From IMG/VR virus record IMGVR_UViG_2703718787_000017: a stretch of 64,000 nt of DNA; one strand, given 5' to 3'. The position numbers are program-made. The DNA is from a virus. Lineage: Duplodnaviria; Heunggongvirae; Uroviricota; Caudoviricetes. Below, one piece after another: positions 30,001 to 42,000 of the stretch; position 1 is the stretch's first letter, and each line of letters opens with the position of its first letter.

Positions 30001-33000
30001 GCTTTGCATCGGCTTACAAAGCTTTGCATGTTTTTCAATGTTGGGACGTGTGAGCGCAGAAATGACGGGCTATCTAATTGATTTTAAACGATACGTAACC
30101 AACTTTAAAATCTTTGCACGCCAGTTCGCAGGTTTTACAGCCAGTACAGCGGCTGGAATCGATAAAAAATCCATATTGTGTGGTCATGGGCTACTCCTTA
30201 AACCTTTTCGATCTGGACAAGATTGCTGTGCGACGGGTTTCCCTTTGCCAGCGGTGAAGGGCGGTGAGAGGTCAGAATATTGATACTGCCGCCGTGATCG
30301 ACCCGGTCACCAAACATATCCGCTTTAAGCCACGCACCTTGCCCGATGGCGGTAACGCCAGGCAGAATACGCGGAGTCACTTTTGCGGCAATCAGCATTT
30401 CTCCATTATTGTTAAATACCCGCACGGTATCGCCATGACGGATACCGCGTGCCTGAGCATCAATGGGGTTGATCCACACCTCTTGTGGGCAGGCCTGCTG
30501 TAACACATCAATATTGCCGTAGCTGGAGTGGGTACGCGCTTTGTAGTGGAAGCCCGTTAACTGCAGTGGATAGGTTTTCCGCAGGGGATCGTCCCAGCCA
30601 TCAAAACCTGGGGTATACGCAGGAAGGGGATGAATAATTTCATCTTTTTTCAATTCCCAGGTATCTGCAATCTTCGCCAGTCGTTCAGAATAAATTTCGA
30701 TTTTCCCCGAAGGTGTTTTCAACGGGTTTGCCTGTGGATCTTCACGGAATGCGCGGAAAGCGACGTAGTGTTCTTCCGGGCATTTTTTCTTAAAGATCCC
30801 GGTCGTTTTCATCTCCTCGTAGTCGGGCATCTCAGGGTTACGTTCCTTCGTTTTCGCATGGAGATATTTGATCCATTCATGCTGACTGCGACCTTCAGTA
30901 AAGGTTTGATAAACGTCTGGTCCTAAGCGTTTGGCGACTTCACTCAGCATCCAGTAGATGGGTTTGCGTTCAAATTTTGCTGAGGTTGCGGGTTGGGCGA
31001 GGATCACATAGCCCATATTCCCTGCAGATTCATGAGAGATAAGGTCTTCTTGCTCTGTTGGCATCAGGTCGGGCAACAGGATATCGCAATACTTAGCCGA
31101 GGCCGTCATGAAGTGGTCAATGCCAACAATCATCTCGCACTTGCTGTCATCCTGAAGCACCTCATGGGTGTGATTGATGTCGCCATGTTGATTGATCAAT
31201 GTGTTACTGGCGTAGCACCATAAAAACTTGATGGGGACATCCAGTTTTTCTTTTCCACGAACACCATCACGGGTCGCGGTCATTTCCGTACCATGGTCGA
31301 TGGCATCTGTCCATGTAAAGACGGAAATCTGCGTTTTAACAGGATTCTCAAGCATCGGGAACCATTCTACCCCCAGATCCCAGCTACCTTCGCGTACACC
31401 TGAGTTGCCGCCGTTTATGCCGACGTTACCGGTGAGAACGGAAAGCATGGCAATAGCGCGGGACGTTTGCTCGCCGTTGGAATGTCGTTGTGGCCCCCAA
31501 CCCTGACAAATATAAGCAGGTTTTGCTGAACCGATCTCTCGTGCCAACTGGATAATTTTTTCTGCCGGGATGCTGGTGATTTTTGCTGCCCATTCCGGCG
31601 TTTTAGCTATGCCGTCAGGCCCTTCGCCCAGAATATAGGCTTTATAATGCGCGTTACGTGGTGCGTTGGCGGGCAGCGTTTTTTCATCGTAACCAACACA
31701 ATATTTGTCGAGAAATGGCTGATCGACCATGTTTTCAGTAATCAGTACCCAGGCAATCGCACAGGCCAGTGCGCCATCGGTGCCAGGGCGAATGGGCAGC
31801 CATTCATCTTCACGCCCGGCAGCAGTGTCGTTATAACATGGATCGATGACGATCATGCGTGCGTTTGAACGTTCGCGGGCTTGCTCGACGTAGTAAGTGA
31901 CACCACCGCCGCTCATCCGCGTTTCTGCCGGGTTATTTCCGAACATAACGACCAGTTTCGTATTGGCGATATCATCCGGGCTGTTGCCATCATTGGCACC
32001 GAACATATAACTCATTGCGGCACTGATCTGTGCGGTACTGTAGCTGCCATAGCGACTGAGAAAACCACCGCAAGAGTTCATCAGACGGTACGGGACGTTT
32101 GAGTTGGTGATGTTTCCGCCATCTACGCCTGTTCCGTACAGGACATGTACAGCCTCATTGCCGTAATCTTTCAGGATCCGCCGAAGATTATCACTGATGG
32201 TATCCAGGGCTTCGTCCCAACTTATCCGTTCAAATTTACCTTCACCGCGCTTGCCGACGCGCTTCATGGGATATTTCAACCTATCAGGATGATTCATCCG
32301 TCGGCGGATAGAGCGCCCGCGTAAACACGCTCGAACCTGATGGTTACCGTAGACGTCGTCACCTGTCGTATCAGACTCCACCCAGTACACGGTGTCATCT
32401 TTCACATGCAAACGTAACAGACAGCGGCTCCCGCAGTTAACGGTGCAGGAACTCCAGACCGCTTTCTCTTCTACCGGAGCCTCTGCCGCCCGGACCATTT
32501 GGGAAAATGGCAGAGTGAAAGCACTGCTTGCCAGCGCAAGACTGCCAAGTGCGGAGGTTTTCATCAGACTTCTACGGCTGATTTCAGCCTTCATGAGCGC
32601 CTCTGTGGTATGGATTTTCATCATTACTCACTTATTGCTTTTCAAACAAAATGTCATGCCAGAATTTATGATTGTCGTGGGTTATATTTTTTCGATCTCG
32701 ACCAGATTAGTGTGCTGCGGGTTTCCCTTCGCCAGTGGTGAAGGGCGCAGAGTGGTTAGCGTATTCACACAGCCGCCATGGTCGATTTTATCGCCAGACA
32801 TATTGGCCTCGTGCCAGGCTCCCTGGCCCATAGCGCTAACTCCAGGGAGAATACGTGGTGTTACTTTGGCTGGTAGCCGAACTTCGCCACGATGGTTAAA
32901 CACCCGCACCATATCGCCGTTGGCAATCCCACGTTTCTGCGCATCTATAGGGTTGATCCACACCTCCTGACGGCAGGCAGCCTTCAGGAGATCAATATTG

Positions 33001-39000: not shown

Positions 39001-42000
39001 TCCGTTCCCTGTAGAAGTCCTGCCAGCTCGCAACAGCTTACCGACGCCAATCATTGCTCACACTCTGGCTGACCGCTCTGTGGTCGTTCCTGTCCGTGGT
39101 GGTAAACGACCTGAAGTCGTGACCGCTCCGTCTGGTACTGAAATCACCGTTGAGCCGATTGAGCAAGCTATCCTCGTGTCCCACCAAACCAAGCTATGGG
39201 ACGCTAAGTCATCCACCGGATTCACTCAGGGCACACTTCAGCAGGACGCTATGAACATCTGTGAGAATGTGGTCCGTACCATCAACGCTCGCATGGTCGA
39301 CGTTCTGGAGTCCTCCAAACTGTTGAAGACCGTAGAGCTTCCTGTCCTGACTGGTAGCCTGACCGCTAAGGCAGACGATATCATGGACGCTCTGTATGAC
39401 AACACCGAGTCCTCTTTCGGCTCTGAAGTGTCTGATTATGGCATCATCGCCCATGAGTCCCAACTGAAAGCGCTGTCCCGTCTGGCTGCTAAACAGGGCT
39501 TCTCTGGTGAAGACGCTATCGTGGATATGCTGGGAACAGACATCGCCTACTACAACGGTGAAGACAAGGGTGTGTTCATGCTGGCTAAACGCTTCACGGC
39601 CCTGAGCTTCGGTTGCTTCCGTCATGATGGCGAGAACATTACCGTGGTCTTATCCCGGGATGGTGACTCTCAGTCTAACTCTCTGGAAATCCTCGGCAAG
39701 GTCTTCGTGGTTGCTGAAGCTGCTACGACAATCAAGATGGGTACTGGTAGTGCTACTGCTGTCCTGCCTGTAGTCAAACGCCTGAAGTTCACCAAGACCG
39801 AAGCGTAAGACCATGAGCAGAGGTAAGTCTGGACTGAATATCAGCAGGACTTCAGGTGGTGGATTATCAATGTAATTAATAACTATGGTCTGGACTTCGG
39901 TCTGGACCTTATTAGCGAAGTTATCCACAGCTTAATAACATATACAACTTTATTCACATTAAGGAGGACGCATGGACCTGCATAAAGTCTATCTTATCGT
40001 CTTCCTGTTGAAGCTGGTGCTGGTGGTCGTGCTTACAGTCAGGGTACGGCTGTGAGCTGGCGAGCAGCTAACGATGAGTTTTGGACCAAAAGTTAGAGAC
40101 CTGATTCAATACAATTAAGACACCAATGTTCCCCGGTGCCACCCTGAGTCCAGACCGAGGCCACCGGGGGGGGGGGGCTGACCAGCCGTCTAGACATCCC
40201 GTCTAATGACACAAGGCTGACACAAAGCCTGACACAAAGTCCTTGACTCAATGCAGGACCTCAGGCCTACTAAGGGTCCGCTTCAAGTCCTTGAAGTTCC
40301 AGATGAACTTAATGGGCACATCCAGTTTATCTTTGCCGCGGACGCCGTCGCGGATTGCCGTCATTTGCGGACCATGATCGATAGCATCTGTCCAGCTGAA
40401 GCAGGAGATTGACATTTTGACCGGATTATCCAGCACCGGCAGGCGTTCTATGGTAATGGTATAGGTCGATTCACGCGCGCCACTATTTCCGCCGCTGATG
40501 CCGACATTGCCCGTCAAAATAGGTAACATAGCAATAGCGCGTGCAGTCAGTTCGCCGTTTGCCTGGCGTTGCGGCCCCCAGCCCTGGCAGATATAAGCGG
40601 GTTTTGCTGTGCCAATTTCACGCGCCAGTTTGATGATACGGTCTACCGGGATACCGGTAATTTGCGAAGCCCACTGCGGCGTTTTCGCTGTGTTATCATC
40701 ACCTTCACCAAGAATATAGGCTTTATAGTGACTATTTTTGGGTGCATCTGCGGGTAAGGTTTTTTCGTCATAGCCGACGCAGTATTTATCGAGAAAAGGT
40801 TGATCAACGAGATTTTCGTTAATCAATACCCAGGCAATACCCGCAACCAGCGCGGCATCGGTGCCCGGGCGAATAGGGAGCCATTCATCTTCACGACCAG
40901 CAGCCGTATCGGTATATCGCGGATCGATAGCAATCATTTTGGCGTTCGATTTCTCGCGCGCTTTTTCAAGAAGATAAGTGATGCCACCGCCGCTCATGCG
41001 GGTTTCTGCCGGGTTGTTACCAAACATCACGACCAGCTTGCTGTTTTCAATATCCGTGGTGCTGTTGCCATCATTACTGCCGTAGGTGTAGGGCATGGCA
41101 CAGGAAATTTGCGCGGTGCTGTAGGAGCCATACTGATTGAGTGAACCGCCGTAGCAGTTCATCAGGCGTTTGACCGCCGAGGCTGATGGCGAAGAGCGGG
41201 TCATATTGCCGCCAACGATCCCCGAAGAGTACTGAATATATACAGCCTCATTGCCATATTGTTCGACGGTTTTCTTCAGGCTACTGGCGATAGTATCCAG
41301 GGCTTCATCCCAGCTAATCCGTTCGAATTTGCCTTCGCCGCGTTTGCCCACGCGTTTCATTGGGTAATTCAAGCGATCGGGATGATTAATACGCCGACGG
41401 ATGGATCGACCACGCAAACAGGCGCGTACTTGATGATTGCCATACTCGTCGCTGCCGGTGTTGTCAGTTTCCACCCAGGTGACTTCATTATCTTTAACAT
41501 GTAGACGAAGTGCACAGCGGCTACCACAGTTGACGGAACAGGCACCCCAGATCACTTTTTCGCTGGCCTGTTGTACCGCTGCCGCTGCACTGCGCAGGGT
41601 GAACGGTAAAGAAAAACCGCCTGCAGCCAGCGCCAGAGAACCTATCGCGGTTGATTTAACGAGTGTTCTGCGGCTGATGCCCACCATTCGGTCATTTTTG
41701 GACATAACTCACTCCCTGTTCTTTATCGTTATATAAATGTTTATATATTGAATATTTAGCGCGCTAACAATAGAGGGAGTCTACCCATTTTGGGTTAAGA
41801 ATTATTAATCCATATCAATAGAAGGGTATGAGTAATAAGGTGGGATTATGTTGTATGTTCAAATCGCCGGATGTGTCGTATCCGGCGTTCAGTCGATAAT
41901 GTATTACTGCGGTTCGGCAGGCGCGCCATCCTGGGTAGACTGCGCGGGAGCAGAGACGTTACCGCTGGTGGTGCGGGTATAGAGAATTTTATGCGTATCA

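What the first reader, a model, noticed from the sequence alone, without database searches (positions are those of the whole stretch)
30080..41705. The ynfEFGH anaerobic reductase operon is disrupted twice by independent mobile elements
Seen: ynfE is split by the 6.6-kb element (5' part 40295-41705, 3' part 32682-33712) and ynfG is cut after ~28 codons by the large prophage (junction ~30103), leaving only ynfF intact. The remainder of ynfG must lie beyond the window start. From memory ynfG may be a reported integration site of Shiga-toxin-type phages in some E. coli lineages (unverified).
Basis: partly seen in the sequence, partly recalled or inferred. Interest (0 to 1): 0.5.

Follow-up and report, generated by a model that had tools for sequence, protein, structure and literature searches.

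The report
Phage and island break ynfEFGH
An E. coli anaerobic selenate/tellurate reductase operon is knocked out twice, by a Shiga-toxin-type prophage sitting in ynfG and by a small 6.6-kb integrase-carrying island sitting in ynfE; both insertion sites are already documented, so the finding is correct but ordinary.

Summary
ynfE is split at codons 466-470 by a 6,582-bp island (33713-40294) flanked by a 15-bp direct repeat. ynfG stops after codon 28 at a 7-bp att core (30103-30109) that ends a short-tailed lambdoid prophage. ynfF is a full-length ORF.

A near-identical genome, STEC2018-607 (six differences in 44.8 kb), has the same prophage but an intact ynfE. There the prophage is about 63.6 kb, carries stx1a, and has its integrase next to the rest of ynfG, ynfH and dmsD.

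Both sites are published. ynfG is the attachment site of the Stx1a phages POC-J13 and 75/02 and of the RM10410 prophage. ynfE-targeting islands are catalogued by TIGER as "regulated gene integrity" candidates. Among 5,426 complete E. coli genomes, 149 carry the ynfE junction, 82 the ynfG junction and about 10 both.

Neither insertion rebuilds its target gene, so the reductase should be inactive. dmsD is cut off from the operon promoter.

The one mildly new point: the island encodes an HK97-fold capsid-like protein and may be an undescribed small satellite-like element.

The parts
1..30102 (+). Right arm of a short-tailed (933W-like) lambdoid prophage: capsid, tail fibres, lom, hok, an 8.4-kb LPD38 gene, then minus-strand accessory genes (ead/Ea22, TraR/DksA, antirepressors) up to attR.
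   Evidence: 99.985% identical to the STEC2018-607 prophage (annotation). Positions 5103-30102 are 99.3% identical to Shigella phage 75/02 Stx and 96.1% to POCJ13.
30103..30109 (.). attR common core CTTTAAA of the prophage (ynfG nt 79-85, codons 27-29).
   Evidence: Three-way comparison of attB (MS6192), attL (STEC2018-607) and attR (window).
30104..30187 (-). ynfG 5' fragment, codons 1-28. It carries the first CxxCxxCxxxC motif (Cys 14, 17, 20, 24), then reads into phage DNA and stops after 9 more codons.
   Evidence: tblastn 100% over YnfG residues 1-28; translation. RefSeq annotates the same 84 bp as a partial 4Fe-4S protein in relatives.
30198..32621 (-). ynfF, intact 807-codon ORF (selenate/tellurate reductase catalytic subunit paralogue). 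One private missense change, R262C, at 31838.
32682..33712 (-). ynfE 3' fragment (about codons 466-808, including the repeat copy).
33698..33712 (.). Left copy of the 15-bp direct repeat AGTTCCAGATGAACT (att core; 5-bp inverted arms AGTTC/GAACT around a 5-bp spacer).
33713..40294 (+). 6,582-bp integrative island. All long ORFs are on the + strand, antisense to the ynf operon.
   Evidence: Absent, with a clean empty site, from STEC2018-607 and S19-651. Related islands sit at the same site in 149 genomes.
33774..35378 (+). Tyrosine recombinase/integrase, 534 aa. Motif matches at ARSAE (380), HSLRH (480), LGHS (504) and YDLY (513) are consistent with an intact catalytic domain.
   Evidence: Pfam PF00589 1.7e-13; phrog_1 1.3e-41; motifs.
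33866..33885 (+). Two copies of TGACACAA, a candidate arm-type integrase binding site (P' arm).
   Evidence: All five copies in the island lie at its two ends, against 0.2 expected.
35591..35790 (+). Three tandem ~82-bp repeats, each with TTGACAT...CTGTGAGTCAC. They look like iterons or operators; function untested.
35889..36257 (+). 122-aa ORF of unknown function (phrog_23123).
36771..37910 (+). 379-aa HNH/AP2-like putative DNA-binding protein or nuclease.
   Evidence: phrog_99 9.5e-17; weak AP2 match to 7wq5; RefSeq name 'AP2 domain-containing protein' in related islands.
38187..38744 (+). 185-aa ORF with a highly charged C-terminal half. A scaffold-like role is conjecture only.
   Evidence: Sequence; no family match.
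38810..39808 (+). 332-aa protein with an HK97 fold (major-capsid-like or encapsulin-like).
   Evidence: AlphaFold2 model with pLDDT 84.7 and pTM 0.80. Foldseek gives 240 PDB and 201 BFVD matches at E<=1e-3, all capsid proteins or encapsulins.
40207..40237 (+). Three copies of TGACACAA, a candidate arm-type integrase site (P arm).
40295..40309 (.). Right copy of the 15-bp direct repeat.
40295..41705 (-). ynfE 5' fragment (codons 1-470, with the Tat signal peptide). The ORF runs 47 nt into the island and stops at 40248.

Best explanation
Two unrelated tyrosine-recombinase elements have integrated site-specifically into two genes of one operon.

Shown:
1. A POC-J13 / 75-02-type short-tailed lambdoid prophage recombined with a 7-bp core (CTTTAAA) in codons 27-29 of ynfG. 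In the closest relative this prophage is about 63.6 kb and stx1a-positive.
2. A 6.6-kb island recombined through a 15-bp core (AGTTCCAGATGAACT) in codons 466-470 of ynfE. It carries its own 534-aa integrase and candidate arm-type sites at both ends.
3. Neither element supplies a replacement gene end, so both targets are truncated.

Inferred:
- The operon is now cut into three pieces: promoter plus ynfE' | 'ynfE-ynfF-ynfG' | 'ynfG-ynfH-dmsD.
- ynfF is the only whole structural gene in the window. It has lost its promoter (now 6.6 kb of antisense island away) and its iron-sulfur partner.
- The Ynf selenate/tellurate reductase should therefore be non-functional.
- dmsD, the chaperone also needed by DMSO reductase, is separated from the ynfE promoter by the prophage.

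Both events are in principle reversible by precise excision.
For: Junctions and in-silico restoration:
- Junction coordinates.
- Deleting the island gives a YnfE identical to an intact one, and joining the two prophage junctions at the 7-bp core gives an intact YnfG.
- The 15-bp repeat is present twice in occupied sites and once in empty sites.

The other prophage junction:
- In a genome with 6 differences in 44.8 kb, the prophage integrase abuts 'ynfG-ynfH-dmsD and stx1a lies inside the prophage.

Identity of the prophage:
- The right arm is 99.3% identical to Shigella phage 75/02 Stx and 96.1% to POCJ13.
- Both phages were shown experimentally or by sequence to integrate in ynfG (PMC4193171, PMC5447701), as was the RM10410 prophage (PMC10562709).

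Identity of the island:
- The integrase is supported by Pfam and PHROG matches.
- The integrase gene occurs in 150 complete genomes. Where the flank shows it abuts the ynfE 3' fragment, and 149 genomes carry the ynfE junction.
- TIGER lists Eco892.7.ynfE and Sfl13.8.ynfE as domain-disrupting elements (PMC7192596).

Independence of the two elements:
- 149 genomes have the ynfE junction, 82 the ynfG junction, and about 10 both.

No restoration:
- Phage DNA at attL has stop codons in the ynfG frame and no replacement cysteine motif.

Operon function:
- PMC5203670 and PMC12096835.
Against: - The left prophage junction, the prophage integrase and stx1a are outside the window. They are inferred from a near-identical genome.
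- No expression or enzyme data exist for this strain. ynfF could be transcribed from a promoter inside the island end, and YnfF might pair with DmsB/DmsC.
- dmsD may have its own promoter inside ynfH.
- The promoter and terminator scan of the region found no more sites than shuffled sequence, so it says nothing either way.
Confidence: 0.93

Rival explanations
1. Regulated gene integrity, as in active lysogeny. The ynfE island, and perhaps the ynfG prophage, is a reversible genetic switch. It excises precisely under some condition, such as anaerobiosis or oxyanion stress, to turn the reductase back on. On this reading it is not a mere inactivating insertion.
For: [quoted passage not shown]
- Deleting the island in silico restores a perfect ORF.
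- Two strains that differ from the window by about 6 SNPs each have a clean empty site, so gain or precise loss was very recent.
- The island integrase looks intact.
- A 6,661-bp assembly contig of a related island ends exactly 30 nt beyond each junction, as expected when occupied and empty sites coexist in one sample.
Against: - No excision product or regulated excision has been shown here or, to my knowledge, anywhere. The contig evidence comes from one sequencing run whose nature I did not check.
- In this strain, excising the island alone could not restore the enzyme, because ynfG is also broken.
- Several related islands carry IS insertions, which suggests decay rather than a maintained switch.
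- No excisionase was recognised in the island.
Confidence: 0.12
2. The two elements are functionally linked. The island is a phage satellite and the neighbouring ynfG prophage is its helper, so their presence in one operon is not a coincidence.
For: - The island encodes an HK97-fold capsid-like protein, an HNH-like protein and iteron-like repeats.
- It lacks recognisable portal, terminase and tail genes, so it would need a helper to spread as a particle.
- About 10 genomes carry both elements, against 2.25 expected if independent.
Against: - About 139 of 149 islands occur without the ynfG prophage.
- The co-occurrence count is not corrected for shared ancestry. At least two of the double-positive genomes are near-duplicates.
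- The island's capsid-like protein shows no sequence similarity to the prophage capsid protein.
- The same cargo travels with another integrase to a tRNA site.
Confidence: 0.05
3. Artefact or allelic divergence. The breaks are assembly chimeras, or the flanking sequence is a divergent ynf allele rather than inserted DNA.
For: None found.
Against: - Identical junctions occur in 149 and 82 independent complete genomes.
- The empty sites are exact.
- The inserted DNA encodes an integrase and phage genes.
Confidence: 0.01

Closest known systems
Stx1a-converting phages phiPOC-J13 (Shigella flexneri) and 75/02 Stx (Shigella sonnei), and the Stx1a prophage of E. coli RM10410
   Same: - Same attachment gene, ynfG (S1742 in Shigella).
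- The last 25 kb up to attR is 96-99% identical.
- Same gene order: capsid, tail fibres, lom, LPD38 gene, ead/antirepressor block (PMC4193171, PMC5447701, PMC10562709).
   Different: - Only the right arm is in the window. stx1a and int are seen only in the near-identical strain STEC2018-607.
- The same int/att module also occurs at this site in the O104:H4 outbreak strain. From established knowledge, not tested here, that strain's only stx gene lies on the wrbA prophage, so its ynfG prophage is presumably stx-negative.
TIGER integrative genetic elements Eco892.7.ynfE and Sfl13.8.ynfE (Mageeney et al. 2020, PMC7192596)
   Same: - 7-8 kb islands.
- Tyrosine integrase next to the att site.
- Integrated in ynfE within the Molybdopterin domain, without restoring it.
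   Different: - The window's island is at most 95% identical to any island in 5,426 complete E. coli genomes and has a mosaic cargo (AP2/HNH module versus KilA-N in others).
- That paper gives no cargo analysis. The capsid-like fold is shown here.
Known gene-disrupting prophages and islands that act as switches: phi10403S in Listeria comK, and the Stx1 prophage CP-933V in E. coli mlrA(yehV)
   Same: Site-specific integration inside a coding sequence, without restoration; precise excision would restore the gene.
   Different: No regulated excision or phenotype has been demonstrated for ynfE or ynfG. Here two separate insertions hit one operon.
Capsid-forming PICIs and other phage satellites (P4-like, PICI, PICMI)
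   Same: Small integrase-bearing island with a capsid-fold gene and no full virion gene set.
   Different: At 6.6 kb it has no recognisable portal, protease, small terminase, head-tail connectors, AlpA or primase. It does not meet the gene sets used to define those families.

Membership tests
ynfG-integrating POC-J13 / 75-02-type lambdoid (Stx1a) phages | Integration in ynfG at the family's att core | tested here: met
   7-bp core CTTTAAA at 30103-30109. The attR junction is identical in 82 genomes. ynfG integration is published for POC-J13 and 75/02 (PMC4193171, PMC5447701).
ynfG-integrating POC-J13 / 75-02-type lambdoid (Stx1a) phages | Genome similarity to the reference phages | tested here: met
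   For window 5103-30102: 99.3% identity over 93% to 75/02 Stx, and 96.1% over 88% to POCJ13.
ynfG-integrating POC-J13 / 75-02-type lambdoid (Stx1a) phages | Carries stx1a downstream of the Q antiterminator | not testable with these tools
   That part of the prophage lies before the window start. It is present in STEC2018-607, which is 99.985% identical over the shared 33.7 kb.
ynfG-integrating POC-J13 / 75-02-type lambdoid (Stx1a) phages | Cognate integrase next to attL | not testable with these tools
   Outside the window. Seen in STEC2018-607 adjacent to 'ynfG.
ynfE-targeting integrative genetic elements (TIGER) | Integrase gene adjacent to one end, with direct repeats at both ends | tested here: met
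   The integrase gene starts 62 bp from the left repeat. The 15-bp repeat is at both ends.
ynfE-targeting integrative genetic elements (TIGER) | An uninterrupted attB exists in reference genomes | tested here: met
   5,108 genomes have an intact site, including two near-isogenic strains.
ynfE-targeting integrative genetic elements (TIGER) | Disrupts the Molybdopterin domain without restoring it | tested here: met
   The break is at codon 466-470 of 808. The 5' ORF ends 47 nt into the island.
Regulated gene integrity / active lysogeny switch | Precise excision restores the gene | tested here: met
   Shown in silico only. The restored YnfE is identical to an intact one, and clean empty sites occur in close relatives.
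Regulated gene integrity / active lysogeny switch | Excision occurs in living cells in response to a signal and changes the phenotype | not testable with these tools
   Needs PCR or long-read junction assays and phenotype tests.
Capsid-forming PICI (for the island) | Own major capsid protein gene | tested here: met
   HK97 fold with high-confidence model and matches.
Capsid-forming PICI (for the island) | Portal, prohead protease, small terminase, head-tail adaptor and connector genes | tested here: not met
   No Pfam, PHROG or NCBIfam matches among the island ORFs. There is room for only six ORFs of 70 aa or more.
Capsid-forming PICI (for the island) | Helper-phage-dependent induction and packaging | not testable with these tools
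   Experimental.
Known anti-phage defence systems (for the island cargo) | Match to a PADLOC model | tested here: not met
   No hits at E<=0.1.

The most novel reading that the evidence does not exclude
The ynfE island belongs to an undescribed family of about 6.5-kb integrative elements of Enterobacterales. These elements carry an HK97-fold capsid-like gene, a scaffold-like gene, an HNH/AP2-like gene and iteron-like repeats, but no portal or terminase. On this reading they are a minimal capsid-encoding phage satellite, or an encapsulin-like compartment on a mobile element. Different integrases send them either into a conserved FIWNY-coding motif of DmsA-family genes or to tRNA genes. Integration and excision of the island would then toggle ynfE.
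Probability: 0.2. Interest if true: 0.6.

Novelty: already known. Interest (0 to 1): 0.2.

Why it matters
**Typing and risk assessment.** The window shows a Stx1a-type prophage at the less familiar ynfG site. Tools that look only at wrbA, yehV, sbcB and similar sites would miss it.

**Physiology.** Strains of this kind should have lost Ynf-dependent selenate/tellurate reduction. Because the prophage separates dmsD from the operon promoter, they may also have altered DMSO reductase maturation. This consequence of ynfG lysogeny is easy to test and would apply equally to the O104:H4 outbreak lineage.

**Mobile-element biology.** The near-isogenic pair with and without the island shows the element has moved very recently. 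Its capsid-like gene is a lead worth a separate look.

Tried and rejected
1. **A 24-bp att core for the prophage.** This came from overlapping BLAST alignments. Base-by-base comparison shows only 7 bp are common to attB, attL and attR. The rest of attL is an imperfect phage-borne look-alike, 11 of 17 bases.
2. **Island acquired by homologous recombination of a larger donor tract.** Four of the six differences from STEC2018-607 cluster at 30070-32247, which suggested this. Rejected: three of those four, and five of the six overall, are private to STEC2018-607. The window differs from the shared state of the two relatives by one SNP plus the island.
3. **Restoration of ynfG by phage sequence at attL.** Rejected because of in-frame stops and no cysteine motif.
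4. **Defence-system cargo in the island.** No PADLOC hits.
5. **Pfam and NCBIfam naming of the island cargo.** Nothing beyond the integrase.
6. **Sequence search of the capsid-like protein against PDB.** No hit. Only the fold search was informative.
7. **Similarity between the island capsid-like protein and the prophage capsid.** None.
8. **Island in phage records.** None apart from an 86-bp integrase match.
9. **Promoter and terminator scan to judge ynfF expression.** Counts did not exceed shuffled sequence.
10. **Small contigs carrying the island as evidence of a circular form.**
   - One (L005) is just ynfE-flanking chromosome.
   - One (L006) is a related island in another DmsA-family gene, with 30-nt flanks.
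   - One (L009) has a different integrase beside a tRNA.
   - None shows an attP junction.

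
Full report
**What is there**

The ORF map and comparison with complete E. coli genomes give this layout. All ynf genes are on the minus strand.

| Coordinates | Feature |
|---|---|
| 1-30102 | prophage right arm |
| 30103-30109 | prophage att core |
| 30104-30187 | ynfG codons 1-28 |
| 30198-32621 | ynfF |
| 32682-33712 | ynfE 3' part |
| 33713-40294 | island |
| 40295-41705 | ynfE 5' part |
| beyond 41705 | ynfD, ynfC, speG, ynfB, ynfA, rspA, rspB |

The window is almost identical to E. coli STEC2018-607 (NZ_CP075697.1). There are five mismatches over 1-33712 and one over 40295-51354. The only structural difference is the 6,582-bp insert in ynfE.

**The ynfE break**

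- The insert is bounded by a perfect 15-bp direct repeat, AGTTCCAGATGAACT, at 33698-33712 and 40295-40309. The repeat is itself a 5-bp inverted repeat around a 5-bp spacer.
- Occupied sites in other strains (MS6192, PS2Canimalfeces12) have two copies. Empty sites (STEC2018-607, S19-651) have one.
- Deleting the island and one repeat copy gives an 808-aa YnfE identical to that of STEC2018-607. The site is nt 1397-1411, in the sequence coding KFIWNYAGN.
- The 5' fragment ORF runs 47 nt into the island and stops. Nothing rebuilds the 3' part.

**The ynfG break**

- Only YnfG residues 1-28 are encoded in the window. YnfH and DmsD are absent.
- In STEC2018-607 the other prophage end lies about 33.5 kb before window position 1. 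The order there is integrase, then ynfG lacking its first 78 nt, then ynfH and dmsD. The prophage is about 63.6 kb and carries stx1a.
- I first read the att core as 24 bp from overlapping alignments. Base-by-base comparison shows the sequence common to attB, attL and attR is 7 bp, CTTTAAA.
- Joining the two halves at that core gives a 618-bp gene whose product is identical to an intact YnfG.
- At attL the phage-derived sequence in the ynfG frame has stop codons and lacks the Cys14/17/20/24 motif, so the gene is not restored.

**ynfF**

ynfF is an uninterrupted ORF. Compared with two near-identical strains, the window has one private change, R262C.

**Identity of the prophage**

- Window 5103-30102 is 99.3% identical to Shigella phage 75/02 Stx and 96.1% to Shigella phage POCJ13.
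- POC-J13 was shown experimentally to integrate into ynfG in MG1655 and into its homologue S1742 in S. flexneri (PMC4193171).
- 75/02 uses the same site (PMC5447701).
- So does the Stx1a prophage of the crow isolate RM10410 (PMC10562709), and a clinical isolate in the STECode preprint.
- The same attR junction is in 82 of 5,426 complete E. coli genomes, including the O104:H4 outbreak strains, which carry a 933W-like prophage there.

**Identity of the island**

- *Integrase.* The island encodes a 534-aa tyrosine recombinase (Pfam PF00589; phrog_1) with motifs consistent with an intact catalytic domain.
- *Candidate arm-type sites.* The octamer TGACACAA occurs five times in the island, against 0.2 expected. 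All copies lie at the ends: two just inside the left end and three at the right end. This is the arrangement expected of arm-type integrase sites.
- *Distribution.* The integrase gene is in 150 complete E. coli genomes. Where the flank is visible it abuts the ynfE 3' fragment, and 149 genomes carry the ynfE junction.
- *Diversity.* Island sequences are diverse: 88-95% identity, mosaic cargo, and some copies with IS insertions.
- *Prior record.* TIGER already lists Eco892.7.ynfE and Sfl13.8.ynfE and names ynfE among candidates for "regulated gene integrity" (PMC7192596).
- *Cargo.* The cargo has no Pfam, NCBIfam or PADLOC names. One ORF is HNH/AP2-like.
- *Capsid-like protein.* The 332-aa ORF has an HK97 capsid/encapsulin fold. 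The model has pLDDT 84.7 and pTM 0.80, with 240 PDB and 201 viral matches at E<=1e-3.
- *Related elements.* One related island sits in a different DmsA-family gene at a similar core. Another has the same capsid module behind a different integrase next to a tRNA gene.

**How recent, how common, how independent**

- Against STEC2018-607 and S19-651 the window has one private SNP plus the island. The island was therefore gained, or precisely lost by the relatives, very recently.
- A suspected recombination tract was rejected: most of the clustered SNPs are private to STEC2018-607.
- The ynfE site is intact in 5,108 genomes and the ynfG site in 5,230.
- A chimeric query combining phage-side and island-side junction sequence gave 232 places in 222 genomes. 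So about 10 genomes carry both insertions, against 2.25 expected under independence. This is not corrected for shared ancestry.
- RM10410, EC2, ES5 and PS2Canimalfeces12 are among the genomes whose match runs from the prophage end into the island. A prophage-truncated ynfG together with an island-split ynfE is directly annotated in PS2Canimalfeces12.

**Consequences (inferred)**

- ynfEFGH-dmsD is described as one operon encoding a Tat-exported selenate/tellurate reductase. DmsD is also needed for DmsABC maturation (PMC5203670, PMC12096835).
- Here the promoter-proximal ynfE is truncated. ynfF is separated from the promoter by an antisense 6.6-kb island and lacks YnfG. ynfH and dmsD lie beyond a prophage of about 63 kb.
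- The Ynf enzyme should be inactive. The effect on dmsD is open.
- A promoter and terminator scan was uninformative.

**Verdict**

Each insertion type is already published, and the combination exists in several sequenced strains. This is a correct but ordinary finding. The only lead of some novelty is the capsid-like gene in the ynfE island.

Noticed in passing
window 38810-39808 (+), with 38187-38744 upstream: The island's 332-aa ORF has a confident HK97 capsid/encapsulin fold although no sequence library names it. The upstream 185-aa ORF has a charged C-terminal half and might be scaffold-like. Remote homologues (25-44% identity) exist, and one is fused to an Ig-like domain typical of phage structural proteins.
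   Followed up: partly
window 35591-35790: Three tandem ~82-bp repeats lie between the island integrase and the next gene. Each contains TTGACAT...CTGTGAGTCAC. They look like iterons or operators.
   Followed up: no
window 40166-40177: A run of 12 G in the non-coding right end of the island. It could be a slippage-prone tract or a sequencing-error hotspot.
   Followed up: no
window 29172-29257 and 29708-29792 (-): Two Rfam sRNA-Xcc1 (RF02221) matches, 74.5 and 53 bits, in the antirepressor region just inside the prophage attR end.
   Followed up: no
window ~47066-64000: A third mobile element: a Qin/Rac-like lambdoid prophage after rspB. It has an intact integrase (47066-48346), excisionase, exonuclease, dicB/DicF RNA (51821-51872), hokD/sok, cspB/F/I and lysis genes. 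O104:H4 has ydfJ directly after rspB instead.
   Followed up: partly
window 31838: The only SNP private to the window relative to two near-identical strains is a missense change in ynfF (R262C), the one surviving gene of the broken operon.
   Followed up: partly
window ~5930-5985 (tail fibre gene): A 54-bp length difference in the prophage tail fibre gene between this window/STEC2018-607 and strain S19-651.
   Followed up: no
L006 1-6661; L009 1-6794: L006 is an 80%-related island flanked by the repeat TAGTTCAGATTGAACT in a different DmsA-family gene. Its contig ends exactly 30 nt past each junction, as expected of an assembly-graph bubble between occupied and empty sites. L009 carries the same capsid module with a different integrase and a DUF4145 gene beside a tRNA 3' end.
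   Followed up: partly
E. coli genome collection: The ynfE island and the ynfG prophage co-occur in about 10 complete genomes, against about 2.25 expected if independent. The count is not corrected for phylogeny.
   Followed up: partly
L004 13486-13509 (attL of STEC2018-607): Beyond the 7-bp core, the phage attP arm carries an imperfect copy (11 of 17 bases) of the adjacent ynfG sequence. This is probably the core-type integrase binding site.
   Followed up: no
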